From assembly GCA_964016885.1 (NCBI GenBank), contig OZ024752.1, positions 43,462,001-43,526,000 on the forward strand: a stretch of 64,000 bases of DNA, read 5' to 3'. The position numbers and the translations under genes were made by a program. Position 1 is the stretch's first letter. Every line of letters starts with the position of its first letter. Below are positions 3,724-63,542 of the stretch, one piece after another. This stretch comes from Eledone cirrhosa. Lineage: Eukaryota. Below the pieces are notes generated by a model that saw only the letters and a program-made list of their open reading frames with translations, searched no databases and had not been told where the DNA came from.

Positions 3724-4084
3724 TTTTATAAAAAAAAAATCAAATACATATCATCATCATCACCGTTTTACGTCCGTTCTTCCACGCTAGCATGGGTTAG
3801 ACGGGTTGTCCTGTTGTGTGCAGTGTCTGGTCGGCTGACCATGCCTTGCTCATACAGGAACTGATCTGGCTTGATTTCTACAGCTGGATGCCCTTCCTAA
3901 CACCAACCTCATTTACAGTGAGTGCTGGGTGCTTTTTCGTGGCGCCTACACGTCCACTTTACAGTGTGGGCTGGGTGCTTTTTTGCCGTGGCACCTCCAC
4001 GACCACCTTGCGGGGGGGAGGGGGGAGGGGGGGGGGGGCATATTGTTTATATGCTTCAGCATGTACCCATGGGAGGTCGGGTAC

Positions 4085-4137
<53 letters not shown>

Positions 4138-19500: not shown

Positions 19501-22500
19501 TGTATAATTTCAAATTACAGTTGAACAGTCATAAGGTAGAGAGGACACATTGAACGGTGACATTACAGGGTTAAAAGGATTTATTGAATGATGACAGAGA
19601 GTAGAGAGGAATTTTCAGTCTGGCCAAGCATATAAACTTGCCAAACAAAGGTTGAGAGACTCTTTAGCGGTATAAAAGATGTGACTATCTCCCTAGTAAT
19701 GGTACCAAGATAAAATACAAGTGCCATCTGTAGAGGGCAGGAATGTATATAAGCGAAATACAGTACTTGGCTCTTTTGATTAAATACTGACTGGCTGAGT
19801 GATGACCCTTATAACTCTTACTAGCAGGAAAAACAAATGTTAAATGATGATGACTTAACATAACATTTGACACAACATTCTTCTATATATTTCTGTTTTA
19901 TAAAGATCAGTGTGTAGACAAGAAAACTTAGATACTCTACCTCTGGTGGGAAATTACTGGCCACAATGAGTATACCAACAGTTTCATATATAAACAGCTG
20001 GTCATCACAACTGAGTAGTTGTTGGATGCAGCCATTCTCTGGGGAATGCAACACAAGCATATCAGTAATCTGCTTCAATATGTGTTCTAAATAATCCTGC
20101 AGATGAGACCTACAAGAAATAAACCAAGAATATATATAAATCACTTTTGAAAATTTAGCAGTTTTTCACAGGAATTATTAAACAGTGTTACTGAGATGTT
20201 CACAATAGTAAAAGGAGAGGACAAATACAGAAAATTGGGGAAGAGGACAGATACACATTGTTGGGAAAGACAGAAAATAAAATGGATAGCTGAGACCAAT
20301 AAGTTTATTGATATTACATGGATGAGAGTAGTAAAGGATAGTAAGGGCTTCAGCTTGCAGTGGGCAGGGATAAACCAAATATTTTTTATATCTACAATTC
20401 ACAAAGAAGTTATCTTGTTTTAAGAACAATCACCAATTATTCCATATATAATAAACCTTTTGCCCAAAACAGCCCCTGAATTTATGATACAAAACTGGTC
20501 CCTTTAAAATGATTTTATTAGGTCCTTCATAATTTTATTTAAGAAATTGTTTTAAAACATCAGCTTAAAAATGAAAAGGTTATTTTATTAAATTCCTCCA
20601 AATTTTTTATTATTTTCAAAATAAATTGAAAGACACAGGCAATGTAAATAAACAAAACACACTAAAATTGATTTGAGTTAAAAATATAAAACATAACTAA
20701 CTCACTTTAACACTTTTACAAAACGAGAAAATAGATAGGCTGCCCTACTGCGGACTTGGGGTGATTTATTTCGTAGTCCTCGCTCATCTAGAAAAGCCAT
20801 CTAAAAGGAAAGAATACAAGAAAACATAAATTCAGTTAAAAGACTATCCACTTCACAAATACATTTCTAACTTAAGTAAAATTTAATCTCAAACTTCAAA
20901 AATTACAATCAAAATGAATCATTCATAGTAAAAGTTTTAAATTAATATTAAAATGTAAAGGCATATACATGGCTCTGTGGTTACAAAGTTTGCTTTACAG
21001 CCATGAGGTTTCGTGGCACTTTGGGCAAATCTTTACATCAAACCACCTTGTAAATGAAATTTAGTAAACAAAAATTGCAAAAGCTAATCATATAAATGAA
21101 TGTATGTCTCTGCATGATTTAACATTTAACACCGTTAATTTTTATTTATATCCCAAATAAACAATGTCCTGCAGTTTGGCAGAATAAAAGACTTCTACCT
21201 CAAGAAATCTTGCCCAACCAATGCACTCGAGGTAAAGCAGACCTTAAAAACAGTGAAGATCGTGATATGCAAATTTTAAATAATTTTACATGTGCTTTCA
21301 ATGTTGGCTTAGATTCAATAGGACAGCACAGTCATGTGTTGTCATGGTTTTTACAGCTGGATATCCATCAAACAGTATACAAGATGCATTTTATCGTGGT
21401 ACCAGTACTACCAATTTACATGATGTACTGAGAACATTTTATCATGGGACAAAAACGACCACTTTAGAGTATAGTGGGCACTTTTTAAGGGGGTAGCATC
21501 ATCATCATTTCCATTTAGCATCAATTCTTCCATGCATGCTTGGGTTAGATGTCATCCATGCCAGAAGGTATGTCTGGCCATATCCCACCTTGCTCCAGCG
21601 AGGACTGTAAATTTGGCTGGGTATTCTACAGCTGGATGCCCTTCCTAACACCAACCACATTTAAAGTGTGGGACTGGATGGCTCTGTCATGAGGGACAGG
21701 CCAGTTGGCCGCGCTGAACCCGTCTCGCAATGGAGCTAAGATAAATATCAGTCTTTAAGCAAATAATCAACTATGAGAACAAAAACTAAAACAATTTTCT
21801 TTTTTTTTTAATTTAATTAACTCAATACAAACCAAAACATCTGGAATATATTCTGGTTGGGTATTGAAGAACTTCTCATATCGCACCACAGTTTCCAGTA
21901 CCTGAAGTTGTACACAGCTGTGTTTATGGCAGCTAACACCTGAAGATACTAACTGAAATTGAGAAATATTTTATATAATATATATACATAAATAGATATA
22001 TATACATACATATGATGGCTGCAACTCGATTTCGAGTAATGCCATCGCTTGATACTTAAGTATGAGCATCATGGATGTGGCTTTTTATTTCTGCTAGAGA
22101 CTTGCCTATGACCACCAATGCCATGAATCGCAAAAAAATCTCACAAAGCGATGCCTTTGCTTGAAGCTTTTGTAAGTGCGGAAAGGTTTTGCACAGGGCC
22201 AATCCCACTCTCTGAAGATCGAATGCATTTACCCAAAAAGTAGAACTGGTCTACATCATTGCATGCAAACGATGTTGCAGGTTTTATATCAGAATGACCT
22301 TCTAGAGAAATGTCTTAATGAAGACTAGGATTCTTGCCCTGTTTTGTTTTTCATCAACATCATCATTGTTTAACTCTTTAGCATTTAAACCAGCTTATCT
22401 GGCCAGAATTCTCTCACCTCTTTCTGTTCAGACCAGCCACTCATACTGACGTTAAAGTATTATTCTCAAAATAAATAATATCAAAATCTCATAGATTTGA

Positions 22501-25500
22501 TATAATGTGAGGTAATTGTGTAAGATAAAACCTTTATTGTAAAAATACAACAGTAAATATAGAGTAATGTAAATGCTAAGGAGTTAACACCTACTTTCTC
22601 AACTTGTATGGGTTAAACAGGTTGTCACATTCTTATGCTAGACTAGTCAAATAACCATGTAGCTCATGTGTATGGGGGAGCATTTTATTGAGACTAGCAT
22701 CACCACATCACAGAGTGGAATTTGTCATTCCATCAGCACAATTATTTTATAGGATTGGCTGGGTGTATTTTATTGTAGGACAAGCACTACATCTATGTAC
22801 TTGTAACCCATATACAAATAAATTTTCTCTCTAAAACAATTTTTGGTACATTTGATGCTGTATTAAAATTAGGATGTCCATAAAATATAGATATGCATTC
22901 CACAATTATTAGGAAAAATTCTATAAGGGTTCTGTGACAATAAGTTTAGAAATGACTAACCTAGAGTGACATTTCTTCCTAATGTATAGTGAAAGATAGT
23001 TTCAAAGTAAAATATGACAGCAGTGACAAAAGGAATTTCTTCACCTGGAGAGATACTCCTTAATGTATAGTAAAGGAAAGTTCAGTGTATAAGATTCTAT
23101 CATTAAAAAATTCAAAGAAAAAGAGAAAAACAGCACTTACCAATTGCATCATTTCCTGTAATGGAGAAGGCTTCTCCTTGCAACCAGTAAAACTTTGATT
23201 GGAAGACTAAATAGGAAATTCATTTAAAAATAAGTTATCAAATATTAAATCTTGTATATATTGGCAGCTCTTTCACACACAAATACATAAGTGCACATGT
23301 ATGCACACAACACATTTTCCTTACCCAATTACACCTCTCAAGGGCGATGACACACGACCGTGACCTCTGGCATCACGCAGTAATACAGAAGACCTGACCC
23401 CCCCCCCCCCCCCCCCACCCCACGGGTACAAGCCAAAGCTGAAGCATATAGACAATATGCCCCTACACCCTCGCACTGCAAAGTGGTCGTGGAAGTGCCA
23501 CGGCAAAAAAGCACCCAGCCCACACTGTAAAGTGGACGTGTAGGCGCCACGGAAAAAAAGCACCCAACACTCACTGTAAATGAAGTTGATGTTAGGAAGA
23601 GCATCCAGCTGTAGAAATCAAGCCCGAATTAGTTCCCATATGAGCAAGGCATGGTCAGGCGACCGGCTACTGCCCACAACAGGACAACCCGTCTAACCCA
23701 TGCTAGCATGGAAGAACGGACGTAAAACAGTGATGATGATAGAGTATTGTATTTTTGTGGTAAAGGCTTCATCTTACACTAGATTACCCGTGACCCGTTA
23801 GGTCAAGTTCACTTTATATAATTAAAATACACAGACATGTATATAATGTAAAATGAAATTGAAAGACCCATGTGTGTGCCTGTGATCTATATAAACTGGT
23901 CACAGACACACATATATATATATATATACACACACATAGAAACCCTTCCTATTTAGCAGGAATGATTCACTACACACAGATACAGTAATGCTGCATTCGA
24001 TTCTTTGAATTCACTTGTAATTTCAGTCAACAACACCACCAGCTCTCTCTCTCTGTATCAATCTACTCTCTCACAACCACTATCTCTTTCTCTCTATATA
24101 TCTATGAAGGTACCCGGAAAAACCCTGTTCCTCGGGAACCCATGCTCTAATTTATGCGAAATTTGTTTTATTCCATTTATATTCCCATTTCAGGGGCAAC
24201 TTCCTTTCAAAGTATTTTCCCATTATGTGCCGTTTTTGGCTGTATTAAATTACAGACACACACACGATCACAGAGTTTTAGTAGTATATAGATAATTATC
24301 TCACATATCGAATCTATGAGATTTTGATATTATTTGAGAACAATATCTTAACGTCAATATGAGTGGTCAGTTACAGCTGGTTTGAACAGAAAGAGGTGAG
24401 GGAATTCTGGCTGGATACAGCCGGTTTAATTACTCTATATATATTATTGTATTTTCTAAGTAAAAGTTTTACCTCATATAATTATTTCATTTATATCAAA
24501 TCTACGAGATTTTGATATTTATTTTTAGAACAATACCTTAACATCAGTATGAGTGGCCTGTTACAGCTGGTTTGAACATAAAGAGGAGAGAGAATTCTGG
24601 CCGGATATGGCCCGGTTTGAATGCTAAAGAGTTAAATGAAATTTCGAAGATACATTTTCGTAGTTGTTGATTATGATTATATTGATGAAATGTAAAAGAA
24701 TACATAGTTATAGAAATGACAACTATGTAAACTGGGCTGTTTAGATGTCTCTGAGCTATGACAACTCAATGCCAATACATAATTTAAACCAGTAACACTA
24801 GTTGAGTAGAGTGTTCTACCAACTCAACCTCAGTTGCACTGGCTCCAATGGATAACTGAGCCAACAAGGTAGCCACTGTGTAGTCATTCGATCTGCTAGA
24901 ACGAACAGCTAAAATATTCATTAAATCCTACCCTACTGTCTTAAGAGAAGACTTGTTGGATAATGTAATCCTAGAAATAAACTATGCCTAAAAGAAAAGA
25001 TATGATGGCCACAAGTGTAATGTCTTTGATCATAGGTCATCTTGATCAGGCATGCCTAAGACCAAGCAATAACATTAGTTACGGTGCTGAACTATTGAAG
25101 AATTGCATTCTTCTCGATCAGAATGACATGCACCGTTCCCATTATTTGGGCTGAAACATTGCTTCAACAGAACTTTTCAGAAAGCAGAACAAATTAGGAT
25201 ATTTTAAACCGTTTTTTATACTAACCCACCTGAAACCACTCATGGGTTTTATTATACAAAACTGACCAAAATATTCATACTTATATAAAAACCTCCCATC
25301 ATAAATTTATTTATATCTTTTTAGTAGTGTTCCAAACAGATTACTAATGAAAAGTTATTTCATTAAATTCCTCCAATGTTTTGATTATTTTCAAAATTAA
25401 TTGAAACCTAAACACAGAGTTAAAGACATATCTCATACTTTATCCTTAATAAAAAAAAAAAAGTTCAATTAGTTTTAAAATATCAAAGACAAAACAACTA

Positions 25501-44813: not shown

Positions 44814-44946
44814 ACAATATTGAAAACGATTTGCTGTCTTTGTTTTTTTTTTTTTTTTTACTGAAACCCTGATAGTAATATCTTAAAGAAAACATGGTTG
44901 CAGCCAAGCATTAGGTCTTTATATATATATATATATGCACACACAC

Positions 44947-45835
44947 ATCATCATTTTACGTCCACTTTTCCCTGCTTGCAAGGGTGGGAAGGACCCTATT
45001 CAGTACAGCATCTCTCCACTTGTCACAGTCCTCCGTGAACTCCACTCATGTTTTTCGTGGGATTTCTTGACACTTCTTTACCCAGCGGTCATCCTCCATG
45101 CCATCGCTGTCTTCTCTCCCACACACTACAACTTATCCCTCTTATACATAGCTTCATTTCTCTCCAGCTGTTCCATGTCTCACACAGCCATCATATAACT
45201 GGCCTTTTGTACGCAAGGAAAAACCCTTCTTCCAACCTGTCCTTATTCTAGATACTATGGCCTCGGAACACCCCTCTCCCATGCTAATCTGATCTAGGTA
45301 CCCGGAAGCTATCAACCACTTCTATAGAACCCACCTGCATTTGAAAAATCTATCACTGACCTCTAGTCAAATTTCCCTGTACATCTACTGTATATGTAGT
45401 TTTGCCTGCTATCCCACTACATCTCTTGTGTACCCAAGATCTGCATATCGAACATGGCCATTTCCCTCTCGGAATAGTTTTGTCCTCTTGATTCCAACTG
45501 CTGTTTCCATAGCCAGAATTTATTCTCTAGCTCCTGATTCTGCTATAAAAACCAGCGTCAGCATAGAGAAGTTCCCATGGCAGCCTGGCTTGGAGTACTA
45601 TAATGAACAAGAGCGAGCTGACGACCGAATCCTGATATACTACTTGTATCTGGGACTCCTCTACACCAAGTTTCCTTAGGGACCACCAGATGACAGATTG
45701 GGGTACCCTATCAAAGACATTCTCTAAGAACCTCTGTTGTACTTTTCCCAGGCACAAAACCAAACTGCATCTCATCTAATTTGACCCTTTCTCTAATTAG
45801 TTGCGCTAATAATCTCTCTGCCACTTTCATAAGCT
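44947..45835 (-). mobile_element. Internally deleted RTE subfamily 2 copy between RPL18A and ACAD9
   Basis: FDRVPQSVIWWSLRKLGVEE, PWELLYAD; same 3' end as 55802. Confidence 0.85.
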
Positions 45836-46127: not shown

Positions 46128-49100
46128 CTATTGAAAAAAAAAAAGACATGTTATGACGATTTTATATAAATTTGAATCATTAAATTCAACTGGACCTTCA
46201 TCAGCTTTGAAAATAAATGGTCCAGTAATAGCATGGCTAAGTATTCCACAGACATGTACCGTTAAACTTTTACCTCACATAATATTGAATCTGAGATTTT
46301 TGAGAACAATACCTTAACATTGGTTTGAACAGAAGGGTGAGGGAATAGTGGCTGGTTTAAATGCCAAATGGTTCTTGGAGATTCAAGAAGGCTGACCTTT
46401 AAAATTACAAGTACAATCCATCTTACGGACTTCCAAACAGTTACCCCTCTAGGCTTGCCTAAGATAGTAGCAATGGGATTGAAGTGATATTCCTAACCAT
46501 CTGGCCATGCTATGTCCACTATATTATAAAACCAAGTATACTTACCCATACTTAATTCTTGCACCTTGTTACCAATACGTTGACTGGCATTAGCACAGAA
46601 TGCTTTTGTTATCATTATCTGTTGGAAGAGAAATTCAGTATATTTCAAATATTAATTTCGACATAGCACATGACAGAGGTGGACAGGAATCTAAAAGGCT
46701 CAGAGTAAACCTAGCAAAAACTGAAGGATTCTAATTTCTTCAGGGAAGTGGCCATGCACAATATGTAGAGGAGATAGGAATTCTCTATGTACACAATATT
46801 AGGTATGGGTAGGCAGGTAAACATCATGACTGCATATGGCAGATGCACAATGATACCAAAGTTGATAGTTTCTGTTATTAAGGTGGTCTAATTAGCAGTA
46901 AAAGTTTAGGGCGCTACTACCTTTGTTGACAACAAAGGGATTTTATCTATGAGCAAATGGAAGGTGGAATGAAATGAATTGGCTGTGGTGGAATCAGATG
47001 TGTACAAGAAAGAACAGCATTAAGATAATGTGTGTGATATTAAATTCTTTCTTCAGTTTAAATATCTTGTATAATACTTGATATTGTGTCATTTAATCAC
47101 CTGATACCACTTCAACTAGTCTCAGACACACATTCATGTGAGTGAACGACCAAGCATAGATGAGTTGAAAATTAAACTATATAAGAGGAATAAAGTAGTG
47201 TGCTGGAGATAAGACTGCATTGGTATGGCCAAGTAATCGCAGTGAAAGAAGGGCCACAAAAAACGTGCGGAAGTGGTGATCGCTGAAGCTCATAAGAGAA
47301 GACAAATGGAAAGGTGCTGTGCTGAAGAGGACCTGTCCCGCCCTTGCAAGCAAGGAAAACCTGACGTTAGATTATGATGACAACACCCAGTTTTATTCAC
47401 ATTCTGTCTAATTTGGCAATTTCCTACTTCCACAGTTTATGTGACATCATTTTACGTCCGCTCTTCCCTGCTTGCAAGGATGGGACGGGAACTGATTTTG
47501 GCTTGATTTCTACAGCTGGATGCCCTTCCTAACACCAACCTCATTTACGCTGGGTGCTTTTTTTCCGTGGCACCTACACGTCCACTTTACAGTGTGGGCT
47601 GGGTGCTTTTTTTGCCGTGGAATGATAGGGACCCCAGTCCCTATCATCTCATTTCTACAGCTGAGTAAACTGGAGCAATGTGAAATAACGTGTCCTGCTC
47701 AAGGAAACAACACATCACCCGGTCTGAGAATTGAACTCACAACCTTTTCATTGCAAGCCCTATGCCTGGATAAGGCCAAATTAATGAATTAGAATAATGT
47801 AACACATTCCTGTAGTTCCAAATATTAAAGAAACGGGGAAATGGTACTATACCTCATGGTCAGCATTACGTAAACCAATAGAATAGGAACGAGATGACCG
47901 AGCAATACAAGATGTCATGGCATATAAGTCTATAGCAATGTCTGCAATACGTTGAACATCCAATTGTTGGTCAACAATTTTCTGGAAGAGAAGGTTAGAA
48001 AGAAATGAAGCAAGTATACTCCACTGAATGTGTAATCTTAGTGTGCTAAAACAATGTAGCATAAGCAAGCTGAGAAGAAAACTCAGCAATTGGATGTAAT
48101 GTGCAAGAGAGAATACTGTTAATATGTGACAGCTGTATATAGAGATGCAGAGAAATCTTAGTGAATGGAACTCATAAAAGAGGCAAACCTAGGAAGGGCT
48201 TATCTTAAGAACCTCACAACACAAAGGACTGGTGCTATGCTATATTGGTAAGAAGACCCATCAGCTAGCCTATCCACATATCACCCCCAAGTAGCTTGCC
48301 CCACTATTACTGCACACCTACCACTGTAGTAGCTATTCTCAGCATCACTACACCTTCACCCCTCTATTTAGGACCCCTTATAAAACATAATACCAATCAG
48401 ACATTATCCAGGCTCACCACCTGCCCATTCTACTCTAGATCACTCCCTAAACCCTGACTCAACAGTCATAAGTCCCCAAAACAGTATCATCACAGTTGCC
48501 ACTTGTGACATTGTGGCCAAATTCCTGATATATTAACCAATATCCCTACCAATAAAACCCACCACATTTACAGCTACTACAATTCTCAGTATATCAAGCA
48601 CCCCTTATTTTTCCTGCTTCTGATCATTACCAATTCCCATCTTTCCCTGCCACTTTCCTCAGTATACCACCTCTCCTTTCAATAAAGGTTTTAACAGCAT
48701 CATATACTTATGTACATAGACAAGCAAAATAATAGAGTTAATAGACTAAACTTACATTTCCATGTCTTGCTAAGATAACTTCAACAATTTTTTTAAACTG
48801 AGCAATACATTTCTCCAACATATTAGCTTCTTCCTAAAATAAAGAATTACAGAATATTATTTTGAATGCTCGACGTAATCAAATATGATATCTTATGACA
48901 AAAACAAAAACTCAACTGATCTTGTTGGAATTTTTACTTCCGTACTACATGGAGTTCTAACAGCATTATTGGTCCTACCATAGACAGATAGAGGAATCAG
49001 AGGCGGTTGCGTTGGTATGGACATGTGATGTGTATGAAGGATGACAGCTGCATAAAAAGGTGCAGAGCACTAGAAGTCGATGGAAACCGCGGAGTGGAGA

Positions 49101-52100
49101 GACCCAAGATGACCTGGGATGAGGTGATAAAAGCCGACCTTACCCAATTACACCTCTCAAAGGTGATGACACACGACCGTGACCTCTGGTGTCACGCAGT
49201 AATACAGAGTACCCAACCTTCCATGGGTACAAGCTGAAGCATATAGACAATATGCCCCCACACTACCCACTGCAAGGTGGTCGTGGAGGTGCCACGGCAA
49301 AAAAGCACCCAGCCCACACTGTAAAGTGGACGTGTAGGCGCCACGGAAAAAGCACCCAGCACTCACTGTAAATGAGGTTGGTGTTAGGAAGGGCATCCAG
49401 CTGTAGAAATCAAGCCAAATCAGTTCCTGTATGAGCAAGGCATGGTCAGCCGACCAGACACTGCCCACAACAGGACAACCCGTCTAACCCATGCTAGTGT
49501 GGAAGAACGGACGTAAAACGATGATGATGATGATATATGTGTGTGTGTGTATATACCAGGATTGAGCAATAATCTCCTATGTAACACCTACTTTGTTCTT
49601 ATATATATATATATACACACAGTATGTGTTAACCAGTTTCCCTCCCAGAGCATTAATTAAACCAATAATAACACCCAACAAAGTGGAATTGAACTCAAAC
49701 CATGTGATTATTAAGAAATCTTCACAGCTTGTGCCTTAAGATCTAAAGATTAAATTACTCAAGGTTCCAATTTACAAAGCCAAACTATGTTACGAGAAAG
49801 CTAATATGAAACACCAAGGAGGTAGGACTGGCACAATTTTGACCTTTAAGAACAATGATTTTTGTAGAATTACAATAAAAACATCTTGTGTTGACAATAA
49901 ATGATATGGCAAGAGTTACATGCCTAAAGAACTGGTGTGAGAAAAATTCACCTTTCTGCTGTTTACTTCTAATTGAATGTGAACAAAAATGCTTTTGTCA
50001 TCGTACAATAACAAAAAACCAAAAAAAAAACCAACAAGAAACTGAGGATGGTGCCATATCTAATGACTGGCATAGCAGCATCATCATAAAACCACATCTG
50101 CCAAAATAGAGATTAATTTTTCTGGACCCTTAACAAGTTTCTTACCCCATTGTCTGTATTCTTCCCCGCCAAATCTTTGGTTTTCATTTTCATATATATC
50201 CAGTTTAGAATAGATATATTGAACCTTGGAGTATTGTAAGTTAAACTAAAAAGGTTATCACTGGGAGGGGCATCTAGCCATCAAACTTGGCCTCAAAAAG
50301 AAACCCCATGGTAAGTAAAAGAATTATTTACGGTTTTAGTTAAAGAGGATAGAGCAGTGCCCGTGTCTCTTAAGGACCTCTGAGACTGGTGAAACCTGGC
50401 CAGAAATTTTGCAACAGTGTGGACTTTTGCTAAAAGCACTCAAGGGCCAAGTGGTAGTGTTGCACTGGGTGTCATTCAAGTTTATCATCTAAATAGGCCA
50501 CTGCAGCATTTAAACTCAAAACATAAAGACCCAAAACAAATACTGCAAATTATCTCGTTAGATGCTCCAACAATTCAACAAATCCACCGTCCTGGACTGG
50601 GACTTTATTTTATAAACCCCAAAAGGATGAGACACTAAATTTGAAATATCTGCAACAATTGCAATTTTGTTCTGATTAAAATTCATTTTAAAGAATAAAA
50701 AGTAGATATTACTTGGAGAATTGTTTTAGGTTGGTCTGGATATAAGTCCATGACCCCCAACCCTCAGGTATGAGGATGAGAAGGAAGGAAGGATATGTTT
50801 AGAAAATTAGTAAATAAAAGATGGTAACCTTTAAAGATGGATGCACAGATTCAGCAAGTTCATAGGTTATTTTTGGTTCAGTCACTTGGTTCCTCATGTT
50901 GGAGTAAATAGTGCGGAAAACAAGACGAGGATTATTTAGAGGGTTCCTTAATTTCCTGCAACGTACGATACAACGAAGTCTTTAGATTTATATAGTTAAT
51001 GCCATAGTAGATACATATAAGAGAATTATGAATAAAATGTATATTTATTTAAATACAATCTAACTGATTTATAATACTTTTTTGTGTTTCTAGTTTAGAA
51101 TTGGTACACTAAAAGGGTTCTGTAAAAACACTGCCTCCAAAAGAATGTCATGGGGGCCTGATAGGCAAACTTCTGTTCTGACAGAGGAAATGGACTTAAA
51201 CTGTCTAAGAAACTCTTTTTGGCTGTTACAGTCATAATGTTTCAGTCACTGAACTCTTCACACTTCTTCATGTAGCTATCATATTCAGTAAGGTTCTTGG
51301 AATTTCAAACCACATGGTTTGTCAATAATAGCCAGGATGAGGGCACTAGTCTGAACAAATCAGATTATAATAATTTCTCATCCCATAAATTCAAACAAAA
51401 GCACACAGACACTTACAGCAGTGGGAGTTACTGAGAGATAATCTGCTGAAGACCACAAAGCAGATCTATGGCTGGAGCAAGACTTCAAGGAAAAGGAAGA
51501 CGACTTGGTGGTGGAATAATAGGGTTGATGGGACAAGATCAAGAAGTAGGCATGGAAAGACTGGCAAAACGTGGGATGCAGAGAACAATACCAAGAAGCT
51601 AGGCAATAGGTAGAGTCTGTAAAGAAGGTAGTGAGAAGTAAGAAGTTTACTCGTGTTTAACACTATGAGCAGCTATGGGGTGAGGTGTTCAGGGTTGGAA
51701 GGTAGTGTTTCAAGGAATATCAAGATGTTGCTAGGGGGAAGTGTGCACCTGCCCTCACTGATACTGAAAAAAAAAAGAAGCATGACTGTTGAATGGGGAG
51801 AATGCCTGGAAGAAGATGGCTTGCTTAAGGTGGATCTAACAGAGGGACCAACCATCCTAGTTAGCAGTAGTGTAGGAAGTAGAGTAATTAAGGATATGAA
51901 GACTAGACCTTCAGGGATATCAACTGTTACTTTGCAGTCAGCAAAGTGAAAGTTAAGGAGTATATTGAGGAATTTAGCATGCAGGTCCACTAGGGCATTC
52001 TTCTGTTTATTAAAGTCCTCCAGGTCATAACAGATTGGTTTGTGACAGTCTGCCTATGAGAACTTGTGTATGCTGATGACCGAGATCCTATAGCTGAATC

Positions 52101-54955
52101 TACAGAAGAGATTCCAGACTTGGAAGGGAAGGACAATGCTCATAATTCTCTTCTAATCCAGTGAAACATCCAGGGTGTGACTACTGGAAGAAGAGAGGAC
52201 AGCACAAGCACTGGGCTGATATTGGTCCCAAGAAAATGAAAGGCAAGTTGGACTTCAGCGAGATTTGAACTCACTGTTTGAGCACAGTTGGAACAAAAAT
52301 CAAACACCAACAAGTCTTACAAATCAACCATCTTCAGAACATAATGCAAGACATTTAGTCCTACACTCCAACAAATCTACCTAATCAACCACCTTTGGAA
52401 CAAACGCTGCAAGGTATTTAGTGCTACCCTACCAATATCTCTGTCAATTTGCCACATTTTAACAATTGATGGAAAAAGGAAGTAAATATTTACTTGATTA
52501 GTTCTTTCAAAGTTACACCAGCATGTTTCAGTCCAGTAAGTCCAACAAACAACCTCAAGATTTCATTGGTTCCCTAGAAGATAAAATAGAATTATTAAAT
52601 TATTTAAGAAAAATATAAGCAAGCATAGAAAAGCAGATGTTGATGATAACTAAATCTGAATTTTCAACGGAAAAAGAAAAACAAAACCCTTTTGTCCATT
52701 TTAGTTAGGCCAAGGACACGACAACCTCTCTAGTCCTGATACCATAAAAAATACACTCTGTAAAGTGGTTGGTATTAGAAAGAGCATTCAGCTGTAGAAA
52801 CCATGTAAATAGAGGTAGAGAGGACTCTTTAGTCATGTCAAAGACATGATACTCTCCCTGGTATGATGCCATGATAAAATACACCATTATTAGGAAGGAT
52901 ATCCAACTTACATTGAATAAGAACTGACATGGAACCATAACAAGCCATGGCATGATTTGAACTTAGAGAGCTAAAGCAAATACTGCAAGGAATATAATCT
53001 GATTCCAATATGTTGCTACTGCAATAAATAATCCTTAACCCTTTAATGTTCAAACCGGCCAGAATTCTCTACCTCTTTCTGTTGAAACTGGCTGTAACTG
53101 GTCACTCAAACTGATGTTAAGGTATTGTTCGTAAAATAAATACTTTCAAAATCTCATAGATTCGATATTATATGAGGTAAAGCCTTTACCATGAAAATAT
53201 AATAGTATATATAAAATAATGTGAATGCTAGGACTTACCTCAAATATCATACATATACGGCAATCACGTAGAGACCTCTGGTATGGATATTCCTTCATGT
53301 AACCTAACCCTCCAAGAATCTGTAAACACTCACTTGTCGATATCCATGCCTTTTCTGAACTGAAGATCTGAAAGTAAAAGAAATATTGACATTGTTAGAT
53401 TTGTTGCTATTAAGGGTGACACCTGTATTATGCTAAATCCTTAAACTCATTAATACAAAAACAATGAAAACCCAAAACTTTGCTGATTTGCTGAAATGGA
53501 TCAATGAGAGTATTATAAAATAATAAAGTGAAACATATGCAGACCTGGCTGTGTGATTAAAAATTTAGTTCTCAACCATGTGGACTTAGGTTCCATCCCA
53601 CTGTATGGCACCTAAAAGCGTCATATACTATAATCTGAAGTTGACCAATGCCTTGTGAGTAAAATTTGATTTACAGAGACTGTGGAAGACTGTATATGAA
53701 TATATGTGTGTCTCAGCATAGGTTTTTATTTGACACTACTTAAAAACAACCAGTGATGTCTGTTCAAACATCACAGCTTAGCAATTCAATGGATGAAAGT
53801 TCAGTGAAAAAAATATGTACAGGTTGGTATCAGAAAGGGCATCTGGTCATACTGCATCAAAAATATCTCTTCCATCTGATGCCAGTATGAACTAAACAAT
53901 ATCAGAAACTCAATACATCAAAAACCTATCAATACATTCCAATATGTAATATCAATATTCTTCATAAAATCAACCCTTTTGACATGAAACTACTTAAAAC
54001 CAACACTGTTTAGATTCATCTAAAAACATTCCATCATAATTTTATGTAAGAACATTGTAAAGTTGTTCCAAAGACAGCTTAATAATAAGAAAGTTAGTTA
54101 TATTACTAAATCTCTGTCTGTGAATTTCAAATAATTTAAATAATCAGTGTCTTTCATTAGGAATACAGTAATGAAAGGGTTAAGATTGAATAAGAGGATA
54201 TATGATACAGAATAAACAATAAAAGACCAAATTTTGAATAAATTACATTTTCATCATGTCGATACTATAATATTCATTTTTAACAGTTCAGGGCAGTGAA
54301 ATGATGAAATTTTTTAAAGTATTGAATGAGATACCTTGTAGTATTTATTCTAGCTCTTTGTGTTCTACACACTTTAGCTTACTTAGGTGTTAAATACATC
54401 ATCTGGTTTAAAATAACCATCTGGCCCTTACATGTCTTTAACGGAGTCCACCCCATTCCAAGCATTCAGGTCACATTTCCAGTTTTGGGATACTTCACTC
54501 CTTCCTACAAATCTTGGACATCCTTGAAAGGATCATGTTCATTGCCTCACTGACTAAACAAGACAAGCATTTTAACTCTTTAGCATTTAAATCGGCCAGA
54601 ATTCTCTCACTTCTTTCTGTTCAAACTAGTCATAACTGGTCACTCATACTGATGTTAAGGTATTGTTCTCAAAATAAATCTCGTAGATTCGATATGTGAG
54701 ATAATTGTGTAAGATAAAGCCATTGCCACAAAAATAAAATAATATATATATAGAGTAATGAAAATGCTAAAGGGTTAAGGGCATAAACCTTTTTAGGTGC
54801 CTCCTTGACTAGACAGTAACAATATAAATCCTTACCTTAACAATAGCTGCCTCCAAAGAAACATCCACATTAGGACTGTTATCTATAATCCCAGATGTCA
54901 TGTAAGCCATACTTTCCATCACATAAATATTCATTGCAATATTTGCCAACTTTTC
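46027..54955 (-). CDS. ACAD9: Acyl-CoA dehydrogenase family member 9 (complex I assembly factor), last 8 coding exons; no further 5' exons recognised in the window
   Basis: Motifs [30 protein letters not shown] (catalytic Glu), [15 protein letters not shown] and HPLTRNW. The long C-terminal extension places it in the ACAD9/VLCAD group, and it is closer to ACAD9. Confidence 0.9.
46265..46352 (-). mobile_element. Decayed piggyBac MITE family A fragment
   Basis: GAGAACAATACCTTAACAT...GGTTTAAATGC. Confidence 0.6.
46546..46618 (-). CDS. ACAD9: ACAD9 exon
   Basis: [24 protein letters not shown]. Confidence 0.88.
47445..47768 (-). mobile_element. SINE of the same family as 55463-55785
   Basis: Reverse-complement similarity over its whole length. 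Confidence 0.87.
47853..47981 (-). CDS. ACAD9: ACAD9 exon
   Basis: [43 protein letters not shown]. Confidence 0.94.
48756..48833 (-). CDS. ACAD9: ACAD9 exon
   Basis: [26 protein letters not shown]. Confidence 0.9.
48988..49533 (+). mobile_element. RTE subfamily 1 3' fragment
   Basis: RWYGHVM...WDEVIKADL plus the same 3' UTR as 63197-63498. Confidence 0.93.
50829..50955 (-). CDS. ACAD9: ACAD9 exon
   Basis: KLRNPLNNP...[10 protein letters not shown]. Confidence 0.9.
51466..52130 (+). mobile_element. Decayed RTE fragment
   Basis: Degenerate RT segments including ELVYADD. Confidence 0.6.
52494..52573 (-). CDS. ACAD9: ACAD9 exon
   Basis: [19 protein letters not shown]. Confidence 0.94.
53039..53231 (+). 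mobile_element. piggyBac MITE family A, right TIR truncated next to an ACAD9 splice donor
   Basis: TTAA-CCCTTTAATGTTCAAACCGG...GTGAATGCTA. Confidence 0.87.
53239..53367 (-). CDS. ACAD9: ACAD9 exon
   Basis: IFSSEKAW...[29 protein letters not shown]. Confidence 0.94.
53974..54179 (+). mobile_element. Older TTAA-type MITE family B, representative copy
   Basis: CCCTTTTGA...GTAATGAAAGGG-TTAA. The body CATCATAATTTTATGTAAGAA...GTTCCAAA..CAGCTTAATAAT..AAAGTTA recurs near 1-400, 1540-2210, 12600-12780, 20455-20670, 25205-25420, 29930-30120 and 39415-39600. Confidence 0.7.
54576..54774 (+). mobile_element. piggyBac MITE family A
   Basis: TTAA flanks and TIRs. Confidence 0.9.
54836..54955 (-). CDS. 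ACAD9: ACAD9 exon
   Basis: [25 protein letters not shown]...SLEAAIVK. Confidence 0.92.
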
Positions 54956-55462
54956 CTAGAAATAAAATAGAAACAATAACACATCTTTTTTTATTGTTTT
55001 TGTTTTATATTTTCACAATTTATCTGAAGATATCAATAACTTTAAAGTCTTTAGACAGTGGAAATATTTTTTAATCTGGGAGGACCTCTTTGTATCAGAA
55101 TGGAATTAAAGCCTTTAATGTTCAGCTGTAGTTGTTACAAGTGGTTCAAAATTTAATGTTTGCACCAAGCCTGAAGAGGCTCATCAGGCTGGAACATATC
55201 CCGGTTTCATTGCTGTTCTTTCAGCTAAGTAGACTGGAGTGACATGAAACAGTGTTTAACTGAAAGACACAAAATACCCACCAGACTGAGGATTGAATCC
55301 ATAATCTTACAATCATGAGTGCAACATTCTAACTATTACATATAATCACAGGTTTAGAGTAGCAGGAAAAATTCTGTTTGTATAAACTGTTGAGGCAGTT
55401 GTTTAATTCTTAGACTGTCATTTTGTGTATCTTACTATAAACTATAATAATTTCCATTGAAC

Positions 55463-55785
55463 ATGGCTTAGTGGTTAGAGCATTGGCCTTGCAATCGAAA
55501 GGTTGTGAGTTCAATTCTCAAACCGGGTAATGTGTTGTTTCCTTGAGCAAGACACTTTATTTCACATTGCTCCAGTTTACTCAGCTGTAGAAATGAGATG
55601 ATAGGGACTGGGGTCCATATCATTCCACTGTAAAGTGGAAGTGGAGGTGCCACGGAAAAAAGCACCCAGCACTCACTGTAAATGAGGTTGGTGTTAGGAA
55701 GGGCATCCAGCTGTAGAAATCAAGCCAGAATCAGTTCCTGTCCCACCCTTGCAAGCAGGGAAAAAGCGGACGTAAAATGAAATGA
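55463..55785 (+). mobile_element. tRNA-derived SINE with pseudoknot module and RTE subfamily 2 tail
   Basis: A-box TGGCTTAGTGG, B-box GAGTTCAATTC, central CCTTGAGCAAGACACTTTA domain; tail matches the RTE end at 55802. Confidence 0.88.
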
Positions 55786-55801
55786 ACAGTCAATGGTGTG
55801 T

Positions 55802-57957
55802 ATCATCATCATTTTACGTCCGCTTTTCCCTGCTTGCAAGGGTGGGATGGGTCTTATTCAGCACAGCATCTCTCCACTCGTCACGGTCCCTCGTCATCTG
55901 TTCTTGGCCCCCTTTTGTTTGTGGTATATATTAATGACATAGATGCCAACTTAAGGAATGCCACAGTACTAAAGTACGCAGACGACATCAAGCTGTACCT
56001 TGAGATAAAAAGGACAGATCCTGAACACTATAGATCTTGCTTGCAGTCTGACCTGGACACAATGCAACAGTGGATCTCAGACTGGCAACTCAAGCTAGCT
56101 GTGGACAAGTGCACCACCATGCATTTTGGGAGTAAAAACCCAGCGTCCACATACTCCCTCCACAGCACTAATATCAAGAAGTCTTCCTGTGAACGTGACC
56201 TGGGCATTACGGTCAGCAGCGATTTGCGTTGGACGAGGCACGTCTCTAAAATTGTCAAGAGGGCCGAGGGTGTCTTAGCATCACTCAGCAAGACCTTTGT
56301 CAGCCGCTCTCCAGATATCTATTTAAGGCTGTATACAGCTATGGTGCGACCACACTTAGAATTTGCATCACCAGTCTGGAACCCCTATCTTGCTCAGGAC
56401 ATTGACCGCCTGGAAACTGTTCAGAGACGTGCAACCAAGCGAATACCCTCCATCAGGCATCTACCATACTCTGAGCGCCTTGCTTCCCTGGGCATGGATT
56501 CATTGAAGCTCCGACACCTGGCAACTGACTTGGTAAACACCCACAAAATTGTTAACCATGTTGCCAACAACAACCCTGAGTGCCTTTTCGATTTCCATGT
56601 GTCTAACACACGTGGACATGCCCACAAAGTAAGAAAACAGCACAGTTCCCATGACTTTCGGAAACATTTTTTCACGCTCAGAGTTGCTGAAGCATGGAAC
56701 AAACTACCTGCATCAGTTGTTAGCTGTCAAGACACTGCATCCTTTAAGGCCTCCATGCTTCCCGAGATCCGCCAACACTACAGCTAACACATACAAACAT
56801 GTACTTCCCTGGCATTTGTGTATTATTCTATGTACTATATTGACGAGTTGTAGTGCACCTGAGCACTTTACACAATAATTTCATTATTATTTATTATTAT
56901 CTCCACCGTGAGCTTCAATGATCTGAGGTCTGTTCTCACCACCTCCGCCCATGTTTTTCATGGTCTACGTCTTCCGTCAACTGGCAATTCCTGGCACTTC
57001 TTCACCCATCGGTCATCCTCCATGCGCATCACATGTCCATACCACCTCAATCTCCTCTCCCGTACACTACATTCTATCCCTCTCAGACACAGTTTCTCTC
57101 TCAACACATTTATGCTGGGTCGTTCACGCACATCCAACGGAGCATGCTTGCCTCATTTCTCTCCAGCCGTCGCATATCCTCTGCAGTTGCTGCCCATGTC
57201 TTACTACCATGCAGCATCGCGCTCCTCACACAGGCATCATACAACCAGCCTTTCGTACGCAGGGAGAAACCCTTCTTCGTCAACAGAGGAAGCAGCTCCC
57301 TAAACTTCTTCCAACCCATCCTTATTCTAGATACTATGGCCTCGGAACACCCTCCTCCCATGCTAATCTGATCTCCTAGGTACCGGAAGCTATCCACCAC
57401 TTCTATAGCGCCCTCTTGCATTTGAAAAATGTGTCTATCAGTGCGACTTCTACTGTCTAATTTCCCTGTACATCTACTGCATACATATTTCTCCCTACCT
57501 GTTAGTTTGCCTGTTATCCCGCTACATCTCTTGTGTACCCAGAATCTGCATTGTGTGCATTTTATAGAATTTATGCCAGTTCCTTTTCTGCATATCGAAC
57601 ATGGCCATTTCCTTGACGGAATCAGGGTTTTGTCCTCTTTTCTACTCATCAACACTTTTGTCTTAGCTAGATTCACTCTCAGTCCCCTTGCTTCCAACTG
57701 CTGTTTCCATAGCCAGAATTTATTCTCTAGCTCCTCTACTGATTCTGCTATAAGAACCAGATTGTCAGCATAGAGAAGTTCCCATGGATAGCCAGTCTTA
57801 AACTCCTCTGTTATGGCTTGGAGGACTATAATGAACAAGAGCGGGCTGAGGACCGAACCCTGATGTACTCCTACTTGTATCTGGAATTCCTCACTAAACT
57901 CCATTCCTACCCTGACTTTACTGAGAGTACCTCTGTACAAAGTTTGCACTGTCCACT
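55802..57957 (-). mobile_element. 5'-truncated RTE-clade LINE (subfamily 2, short 3' UTR) interrupted by a CR1 insertion
   Basis: ORF 57110-57967 GVHQGSVLSPLLF...LLYADN...PHD...FRYLGD; the 3' end continues across 55900-56900 to GGACGTAAAATGATGATGA. Confidence 0.93.
55897..56900 (+). mobile_element. 5'-truncated CR1-group LINE with an open RT C-terminal frame
   Basis: SVLGPLLFVVYIND, KYADD, LYTAMVRPHLEFASPVWNPY, TRGH...FFTLRVAEAWNKLP; stop at 56787; (ATT)n tail. Confidence 0.93.
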
Positions 57958-61764: not shown

Positions 61765-63498
61765 AGATAATCTATAGAGGTATAAAGCTGATGGACCAGG
61801 TCATGAAAGTAACAGAGAGTTATAGCACAGTTGATTAGGGACCGGGTGAAACTAGATGAGATGCAATTTGGGTTTGTACCAGGAAGAGGCACCACTGATG
61901 CCCTCTTCCTTGTGAGGCAGTTACAGGAAAAGTACCTAGCTAAAAGTAAGCCACACTACCTGGCATTCGTCGATCTCGAGAAAGCCTTTGACAGAGTTCC
62001 ACGTGCTGCAATCTGGTGGGCTCTTAGAAAACTAAGAGTAGATGAATGGCTTGTGAAAGCTGTACAAGCCATGTATAAGGGAGCACTCAGCAAAGTTAGG
62101 ATTAGCAATGAGTATAGCGAGGAATTTAGCGTACAGGTTGGGGGTCCACCAGGGCTCTGTTCTTAGCCCTCTCCTGTTCATCATAGTCCTGCAGGCAATA
62201 ACGGAGGAGTTTAAGACCGGATGCCCATGGGAACTCCTGTATGCTGATGACCTCGCACTTATAGCTGAATCTATAGAACTAGAGAAGAAATTCCAAACTT
62301 GGAAGCAGGGACTAGAAAGAAAGGGTCTCAAAGTCAACATGACAAACACTAAGGTCCTTGTAAGTAGACGAGAAAACAGAATCCAGGTCCCCTCAGGGAA
62401 ATGGCCTTGCTCAGTATGTAGGAAAGGTGTAGGTAGGAACTCGATTCTCTGCCCCAAATGCAAACAATGGGTACACGTGAGATGTAGCGGGATCTCAGGA
62501 AGCTTATTTAAGAATGTAGGCTTCACATGCAGCAGCTGTGCTGGGACAGCAAGCAGCCACAGGAAACAAGTACCACCAATCTCTGGGAGGGCTCTCTAGA
62601 AACAGTAGACAGCTTCTGCTACCTAGGTGACTGAATTAGCAGCGGAGGTGGGTGTTCAGAAAGTACAATAACTAAGGTAAGAACGGGATGGAAGAAGTTC
62701 AGGGAACTACTGCCACTGCTAGCTGCAAAAGGCTTCTCCCTCAAAATGAAAGGCAAACTGTATGATGCGTGTATCCGAACAGCAATGTTACATGGTAGTG
62801 AGACCTGGGCGCTGAAGGTGGAAGACTTACGTAGATTAGAAAGAAACGAAGCCTGCATGCTCCGATGGATGTGTAATAGTAATATACGCGAACGACAAAG
62901 CATAAATGAATTGTGAGAGAGAGACTGAGCATAAGAGGAATCAAATGCTGTGTGCAGGAGAGGCGGTTGCGTTGGTATGGACATGTGATGCGTATGAAAG
63001 ATGACAGCTACATAAAAAGGTGCAGAGCACTAGAAGTCAATGGAAACCGCGGAGTGGAGAGACCCAAGAAGACCTGGGATGAGGTGATAAAAGCCGACTT
63101 TACCCAATTACACCTCTCAAAGGCGATGACACACGACCGTGACCTCTGGCGTCACGCAGTAATAGAGAGTACCCGACCTCCCATGGGTACAAGCTGAAGC
63201 ATATAGACAATATGCCCCCACACCCTCCCACTGCAAGGTGGTCGTGGAGGTGCCACGGCAAAAAAAGCACCCAGCCCACACTGTAAAGTGGACGTGTAGG
63301 CACCACGGAAAAAGCACCCAGCACTCACTGTAAATGAGGTTGGTGTTAGAAAGGGCATCCAGCTGTAGAAATCAAGCCAAAATCAGTTCCTGTATGAGCA
63401 AGGCATGATCAGCCGACCAAACACTGCCCACAACAGGACAACCCGTCTAACCCATGCTAGCATGGAAGAACAGACGTAAAACGGTGATGATGATGATG
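61765..63498 (+). mobile_element. 5'-truncated RTE-clade LINE (subfamily 1) with PHD finger and long structured 3' UTR
   Basis: [62 protein letters not shown]; (GAT)n tail; a few frameshifts and stops. Confidence 0.95.
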
Positions 63499-63542
63499 GT
63501 AAATATAAATATTAACAGAAAGAAATGTGAATCAATGAAATA

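What the first reader, a model, noticed from the sequence alone, without database searches (positions are those of the whole stretch)
63228..63371. Tandem pseudoknot plus CUGUAAA-loop hairpin RNA module shared by a LINE 3' UTR and a SINE: candidate undescribed functional RNA
Seen: the repeat unit is CGTGG-A-GGTG-CCACG-GC-AAAAAA-GCACC. Stem 1 is CGTGG/CCACG, stem 2 is GGTG(C)/(G)CACC, with a 1-nt first loop and an A-rich last loop, i.e. a compact H-type pseudoknot. It alternates with hairpins whose stems change but still pair around a conserved loop: CCAC-tgcaag-GTGG, CCAC-actgtaaa-GTGG, CTCA-ctgtaaa-TGAG (extended by CCAGC/GTTGG), and TTCCAC-tgtaaa-GTGGAA in the SINE at 55623. The module ends in GGTTGGTGTTAGGAAGGGCATCCAGCTGTAGAAA. 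Six copies are present (3870-4010, 23475-23617, 47507-47620, 49267-49410, 55623-55720, here) with one or two pseudoknot units; in some the second unit is partly decayed. Known: self-cleaving ribozymes (HDV-like, twister) occur at the 5' ends of some RTE-clade elements, and compact A-rich pseudoknots act as frameshift or protein-binding elements. I cannot fit this one to a known ribozyme core. Inference: a selected RNA structure acting as RT-recruitment signal, nuclease block or a new self-cleaving motif. If it derives from an RTE 5' UTR, its position at the LINE 3' end would make the element terminally redundant.
Basis: partly seen in the sequence, partly recalled or inferred. Interest (0 to 1): 0.75.

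Follow-up and report, generated by a model that had tools for sequence, protein, structure and literature searches.

The report
Retrotransposon RNA knot moved front-to-back
A small predicted RNA knot that sits at the front end of RTE jumping genes in this genome and in other organisms lies instead at the back end of several LINE families and inside a SINE here, where it likely serves as a protein-binding handle rather than a self-cutting RNA.

Summary
The module is real. It is the 3' UTR of a young RTE-clade LINE family (A) and the body of a tRNA-CORE SINE; its end motif occurs about 80 times per Mb. It comes from an RTE 5' UTR. A sister family (E) carries it in 1-3 tandem units before its ORF, and so do divergent RTEs in metagenome contigs. 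Its end motif is printed in hagfish RTE 5' UTRs (Kojima 2020); by eye the pseudoknot is the 3' end of Kojima's 2018 'Ceph/RTE' domain. The H-type pseudoknot has moderate covariation support across 12 hand-picked lineage units. However, family A's second unit is broken in the master, family D lacks the knot, and the CUGUAAA loop is not kept outside this genome. There is no Rfam match and no pile-up of 5' ends, and 56 of 70 copies run through the module: self-cleavage and a nuclease block are unlikely. A and B lack it at the 5' end, so they are not terminally redundant. Best reading: a known sequence domain with an undescribed structure, relocated 5' to 3', likely a protein-binding signal (untested). 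An earlier scan note found a satellite from this repeat, not the knot.

The parts
61769..63197 (+). 5'-truncated, frameshifted ORF of an RTE-clade LINE (family A): reverse transcriptase, PHD finger, C-terminus; stop at 63195-63197
   Evidence: RVT_1, PHD; 5' edge from genome copies; sister family B has an intact APE-RT-PHD frame of 1113 aa
63198..63227 (+). family-specific 3' UTR spacer ending in a C-rich run
63228..63241 (+). remnant hairpin of an upstream unit; also the junction point of the SINE head/CORE
63243..63271 (+). unit 1: predicted H-type pseudoknot, S1 5 bp, L1 1 nt, S2 4(5) bp, L2 0, A-rich L3; intact in the family master
63276..63291 (+). inner hairpin CCAC/GTGG with CTGTAAA-containing loop
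63293..63318 (+). unit 2: duplicated pseudoknot unit, mismatched in both stems in the family master
63324..63338 (+). last hairpin CTCA/TGAG (CACA/TGTG in families B-D, CCCA/TGGG in outside lineages)
63338..63371 (+). conserved RTE 5'-UTR domain (GGTTGG...GGGCATCC...TAGAAA), here in a 3' UTR
   Evidence: (hagfish RTE-2/4_EBu)
63442..63497 (+). RTE 3' tail and (GAT)n end of family A
48999..49534 (+). second family A 3' fragment with module
23321..23740 (+). older family A 3' fragment with module
3750..4091 (-). family A 3' fragment with module
55459..55785 (+). SINE: tRNA-like head, CORE-like body (about 55529-55599), one-unit module (55623-55720), family E-type 3' tail (55741-55780)
   Evidence: CORE judged by eye against MIR sequences
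47447..47765 (-). second SINE copy with one and a half units
21497..21668 (-). family D 3' end: hairpin + domain + tail, no pseudoknot unit
52720..52803 (+). old decayed 5'-UTR-type unit (CTAG-preceded) with domain

Best explanation
The stretch is an RTE-clade 5'-UTR module (predicted pseudoknot, hairpin and a conserved end domain) that lies in the 3' UTR of LINE families A-C and in a SINE body, and it likely works as a position-independent RNA handle bound by the element's own reverse transcriptase protein. Shown: the same module lies before the ORF in family E and in outside RTEs, and after the ORF in A-C (D keeps only hairpin and domain); bipartite non-autonomous elements and the SINE keep it. 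Inferred: an ancestor of A-C gained it by a template switch onto a bipartite element or SINE (module + RTE tail), then duplicated it by slippage; selection keeps about one good knot per element; the LINE protein binds it during RNP assembly, which is why non-coding passengers keep it.
For: Position: 22 of 25 family E loci have ORF homology downstream; none of 20 extended E loci has the motif after the ORF and 11 end in the tail straight after the stop; 10 of 79 outside loci show an endonuclease start downstream, none has the domain after its own ORF; hagfish RTE-2/4_EBu have it in the 5' UTR. Structure: 88.9% of cells paired against 79.5 +/- 1.8 in shuffles, covariation score 0.242 against 0.094 (0 of 500 shuffles; slid controls at most 0.123); all four Watson-Crick types at the closing S1 pair; U-A/A-U swaps in both stems. 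A blind scan finds this knot upstream of the domain in 4 of 67 outside stretches (3 lineages, same spacing; 1 further AT-rich hit) against 169 of 13,400 shuffles and 1 of 233 control stretches. Compensatory changes also separate 3'-UTR families (S2 in C, last hairpin in A), so selection went on after the move. Kept in non-coding elements: SINE (29 of 32 copies use the family E tail) and bipartite L394, L401, L420. Analogy: R2Tg protein binds a 3'-UTR pseudoknot to start TPRT (PMC12222951, abstract).
Against: No binding, probing or RNA data. Covariation rests on few events: 5 of 7 double changes pair once a CpG-decay case is dropped; the 12 rows were hand-picked and related; 12 of 108 cells do not pair. 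Family A unit 2 is broken in the master, both B units are imperfect in register, old F units have a C.C mismatch in S1 and family D has no knot, so it is not essential. 62 of 67 outside stretches with the end domain lack such a knot. The unit also expands into long, apparently neutral arrays. The protein trees do not resolve the backbone, so the 5'-to-3' direction rests on distribution, not on a rooted tree.
Confidence: 0.45

Rival explanations
1. Passenger relic: the structure was selected in ancestral 5' UTRs, rode into the 3' UTR with a captured tail and now has no job there; duplication is slippage.
For: Broken unit 2 in A, imperfect B and F units, loss in D; long arrays of the 47-49-nt unit; head and tail swaps at the module.
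Against: Compensatory changes that arose among 3'-UTR families; A, C and the SINE each keep at least one perfect knot.
Confidence: 0.25
2. Translation element: the module recruits ribosomes or initiation factors to an uncapped single-ORF RNA (IRES-like at the 5' end, like a 3' cap-independent enhancer after the move); SINEs keep it to reach ribosomes making RT.
For: Ancestral place just before the ORF and next to 5' twister ribozymes; ribozyme-headed LINE RNAs are translated without a cap (PMC8501958, PMC6765202, passages); A and B have ragged 5' ends with no fixed start.
Against: No assay; kept in non-coding elements; no match to any Rfam IRES or CITE family.
Confidence: 0.17
3. DNA-level internal promoter or enhancer, multiplied like mouse L1 monomers (recalled), with pairing as a second layer.
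For: 1-3 tandem units in the family E 5' UTR; invariant letters in the end domain; Kojima 2018 speculates on transcription-factor binding.
Against: Compensatory pairs point to a single-stranded fold; the SINE has its own tRNA head; no excess of head-to-tail copies upstream of B (4 of 25 same strand, 4 of 25 opposite); no pile-up of starts at the module.
Confidence: 0.08
4. New self-cleaving ribozyme or exonuclease-resistant RNA.
For: Compact pseudoknot, duplicated in a 3' UTR; in some outside RTEs a twister occupies the slot before the same domain.
Against: 56 of 70 tail-selected copies span the module and no start position holds more than 2 copies; 17 SINE copies in the unselected sample span it from the head; no twister, HDV, pistol or xrRNA match; element 5' ends lie well upstream of the knot.
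Confidence: 0.05

Closest known systems
[quoted passage not shown]
   Same: By eye about 50 of 69 positions of OegopSINE 154-222 match the outside lineage L415/L394, whose 3' end is this pseudoknot; family E units keep the same stem-hairpin-AA-stem-CTAG layout; duplicated copies in 5' UTRs and capture by SINEs are described.
   Different: The paper gives sequence only, no pseudoknot; always 5' UTR or SINE body. Families A-C keep only the 3' third and hold it in the 3' UTR.
[quoted passage not shown]
   Same: Same GGTTG...GGAAGGGCATCC...TAAAA domain; same SINE design (head, body, RTE 5' piece, RTE tail).
   Different: Preceded there by a twister-like core or another element, not by this knot; not in a LINE 3' UTR.
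Twister ribozymes at RTE 5' ends (Perere-3, PMC8501958, passages)
   Same: Same slot: in L393 a twister-P1 match ends on the first letters of the domain; this genome has a separate twister-headed RTE family.
   Different: The module has no twister core and no Rfam match; ends do not map to it.
R2Tg 3'-UTR pseudoknot (PMC12222951, abstract only)
   Same: Pseudoknot in a non-LTR retrotransposon 3' UTR; model for protein binding.
   Different: Different clade, no sequence relation tested; here the knot lies 170-250 nt before the end and is dispensable in some families.
Octopus CORE-SINEs OR1/OR2 (Ohshima and Okada 1994; seen only as cited in PMC4824008 and PMC4758252)
   Same: tRNA head plus CORE in an octopus-type genome.

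Membership tests
RTE-clade LINE | single ORF with APE endonuclease and RT | tested here: met
   RVT_1 and PHD in the window; endonuclease-RT-PHD frames read in long A and B copies; the endonuclease was recognised from motifs, not by a Pfam scan
RTE-clade LINE | short-repeat 3' end and RTE-type tail | tested here: met
   (GAT)n end; tail resembles RTE-4_EBu 3' end by eye
RTE-clade LINE | RT groups with reference RTE proteins in a tree | not tested
   no named reference proteins in the trees
Bipartite RTE-derived SINE (Kojima 2018) | small-RNA head, RTE 5'-UTR piece, RTE 3' end | tested here: met
   55459-55785: tRNA-like head and CORE by eye (ARAGORN finds no tRNA), module as in the E 5' UTR, tail as in the E 3' end
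Ceph/RTE 5'-UTR domain | full domain incl. upstream stem and GGCAA..CTAG | tested here: not met
   window copies keep only the 3' knot; the full domain is in E and L415/L394, compared with the paper by eye
Twister ribozyme | P4/L4 core and GAGGG strand; Rfam match | tested here: not met
   no hit on the module; 0 twister-plus-domain matches in G000
HDV-like or pistol ribozyme | nested P3/L3/P1.1 with catalytic C, or pistol P2/P3 core; Rfam match | tested here: not met
   no Rfam hit to E 10; no room for these parts between the stems; the C after S1 varies; family features recalled
Any self-cleaving RNA or xrRNA | ends pile up at one site | tested here: not met
   genomic 5' ends scattered; RNA ends could not be examined
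Any self-cleaving RNA or xrRNA | cleavage or XRN1 resistance in vitro | not testable with these tools
   needs bench assay
Conserved H-type pseudoknot | covariation in both stems | tested here: inconclusive
   above all shuffles and slid controls but few independent events and several broken masters
Terminally redundant LINE (TART-like, recalled) | same sequence in 5' and 3' UTR of one element | tested here: not met

The most novel reading that the evidence does not exclude
RTE retrotransposons across animals carry an unrecognised modular pseudoknot that loads their RNA onto the RT or the ribosome, works from either end, was moved from the 5' to the 3' UTR in a successful group of LINE families, and is the reason SINEs keep capturing RTE 5' pieces: a structural function for the 'enigmatic' SINE body.
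Probability: 0.25. Interest if true: 0.75.

Novelty: new variant of a known kind. Interest (0 to 1): 0.5.

Why it matters
Why SINE bodies and RTE 5' UTR pieces are conserved across phyla is stated as open in Nishihara 2016 and Kojima 2018. A concrete fold with natural compensatory variants, present in both UTR positions in one genome and in an intact single-ORF family, makes that question directly testable. Movement of a 5'-UTR domain into the 3' UTR of autonomous LINEs reverses the usual LINE-to-SINE flow; my 8 completed paper searches on the topic did not show it in print, but Repbase/Dfam records and subscription journals were not searched. If the module proves inert at the 3' end, this is a tidy case of retroposon module shuffling.

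Tried and rejected
Rfam: no hit at gathering over the window, none to E 10 on 63150-63520, none on the module in 8 other loci (only twister in L046 and L393 and microsatellite-type noise). IMG/VR scan: 45 matches to the 16-nt motif, all in unrelated context. No RNA holder listed, so RNA ends and expression were not examined; laying three contig sets of unknown kind only showed the repeat and its one-unit/two-unit forms. Twister-remnant idea (the last hairpin as twister P2 with the core deleted): suggestive by eye, no twister-plus-domain element in G000, unproven. HDV and pistol fits by eye failed. Head-to-tail promoter supply: no strand excess. Trees left the backbone open; the row labelled D_L272 was an adjacent family E copy. 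The first unit tally missed adjacent units and was redone. Ruminski 2011 was not held. The RTE-2_OV sequence was not found in the supplements searched for PMC9115989 (4 files not searched); file 1 of the PMC4824008 supplements was not searched; Figure S4 of Kojima 2018 gave no text. A genome-wide degenerate count of all stem variants could not be run, so variant frequencies come from fetched stretches and narrow patterns. The similarity to published sequences is by eye only.

Full report
Observation. The stretch 63228-63371 is as described and the five other copies are present. Unit 1 can form a 5-bp S1, 1-nt L1, 4-bp S2, no L2 and an A-rich L3; 1 of 20,000 shuffles of the unit gives such a knot. 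The copies are near-identical members of young repeats, so the window alone says nothing about selection. Unit 2 is mismatched in the family master (44 of 52 downstream units) and the extended SINE hairpin occurs in 1 of 32 SINE copies. Rfam has no match.

Setting. The module lies between the stop codon of a truncated RT-PHD frame and an RTE-type tail ending in (GAT)n. The genome (3.0 Gb, likely an octopus by inference) holds many 90-97% identical copies (40 of 942 candidates scored); one 30-nt tail variant alone has 11,959 exact matches. The 13-nt end motif occurs 84 times in 1,044,000 bases fetched without regard to the motif (99 stretches, 10 of them beside the window) against 0, 0 and 1 in shuffles. 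The SINE at 55459-55785 has a tRNA-like head, a CORE-like body (by eye), one unit and a different tail.

Families. I labelled them A-G. A (window), B (intact 1113-aa frame in L033) and C (1,114 exact pattern matches) carry the module after the ORF. D carries hairpin and end domain after a long degenerate repeat, without the knot. E (408 matches) carries 1-3 tandem units of about 89 nt before the ORF: 22 of 25 loci have ORF homology downstream (two pairs of loci overlap). In 20 extended E loci the motif never follows the ORF, and 11 end in the tail directly after the stop. That tail is the SINE's tail (29 of 32 copies). F and G are old forms, often in long arrays. The 5' regions of 25 long A and 25 long B copies are ragged and hold no module in the shared part, which refutes terminal redundancy.

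Outside this genome. A scan for the end domain gave 70 metagenome and 9 genome-contig loci. Ten show an RTE endonuclease start downstream on the same strand and none has the domain behind its own ORF. What precedes the domain varies: a twister (L393, E 2.7e-7, below the gathering score), another element also seen in RTE-4_EBu, or this same knot. A blind scan found a knot in 5 of 67 distinct upstream stretches (4 are this module, from 3 lineages, at the same spacing) against 169 of 13,400 shuffles and 1 of 233 controls. There the hairpin stem is kept but its loop is not CUGUAAA. L394, L401 and L420 are bipartite non-autonomous elements. The organisms are unknown.

Literature. [quoted passage not shown] By eye L415/L394 match it at about 50 of 69 positions, and the knot is its 3' end; E units and L415 align with the window module. 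Searches for the motifs, for a pseudoknot in RTEs or Ceph-SINEs, and for a 3' location showed no paper describing the fold or the move; I judged most listings by title and abstract start, and Repbase/Dfam were not available.

Covariation. One real copy was chosen by hand per lineage or unit (12 rows; D left out because it has no unit; C, E and F rows were fetched with patterns fixed after seeing them in unselected DNA). 88.9% of 108 cells pair (shuffles 79.5 +/- 1.8, 0 of 500 as high); covariation score 0.242 against 0.094, slid controls at most 0.123. The closing S1 pair shows all four Watson-Crick types in 8 rows and mismatches in 4; S1 pair 3 and S2 pair 3 each swap U-A to A-U once. Counting distinct states, 6 of 8 double changes pair, 5 of 7 without a CpG-decay case. 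This is moderate support; the tool warns that related rows can beat all shuffles.

Function. Cleavage or an exonuclease stop inside the module should leave many copies starting there. Among the first 70 listed copies chosen by the tail alone (two pairs redundant), 56 start upstream of 63200; the other 14 are scattered, no position holds more than 2, and 2 of the 4 starts at 63228-63233 are SINE heads. Retention in SINEs and bipartite elements, which make no protein, fits a handle for the LINE protein best; the R2Tg 3'-UTR pseudoknot is the precedent (abstract). A translation role fits the ancestral position; a passenger reading fits the broken masters and family D. No RNA or binding data were available. 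The trees group A with B (97/95) and E apart but leave the backbone open, so the 5'-to-3' direction is inferred from the wider 5' distribution.

Verdict. The sequence domains are known; the pseudoknot reading and the relocation into 3' UTRs of autonomous LINEs were not found in print. It is not a ribozyme on present evidence. New variant of a known kind, interest 0.5.

Noticed in passing
L046-L054, about 1501-1555 of each: A separate RTE family in this genome starts with twister-P1-like ribozymes (9 matches, E 4.8e-7 to 3.5e-4, below the gathering score), followed by a related hairpin ending in GTAAAA and the endonuclease frame.
   Followed up: partly
L372, L382, L433 just upstream of the end domain: Another element in the same slot (also in RTE-4_EBu) could form its own pseudoknot by eye; no Rfam hit on L382.
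   Followed up: no
L237, L238, L256 (first domain of the family E 5' UTR): The most upstream Ceph-like domain of E ends in a knot of similar shape with a wholly different S2 sequence.
   Followed up: no
L163-L166, L333-L335, L353, L103; G000 C12:34.98 Mb: The 47-49-nt unit expands into long tandem arrays.
   Followed up: partly
L183-L232, 500-1000 nt upstream of the ORF: Families A and B have ragged, rearranged pyrimidine-rich 5' regions with no fixed start; how they are transcribed is unexplained.
   Followed up: partly
L457, L496: SINE head and CORE joined to the family A tail: tails are swapped at the module.
   Followed up: no
window 55741-55889, 47301-47489, 44946-45031: Family E-type tails occur as short inverted pairs next to SINE ends.
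   Followed up: no
window 21480-21800 and L259: This stretch with its flank has a 99% identical copy on C5, suggesting a segmental duplication or assembly duplicate.
   Followed up: no
L429-L436: Several prokaryote genome assemblies contain RTE/SINE-type DNA with this domain, probably eukaryotic contamination.
   Followed up: no
L041, L084, L111: Family B copies repeat a 112-nt block including the end domain up to six times.
   Followed up: no
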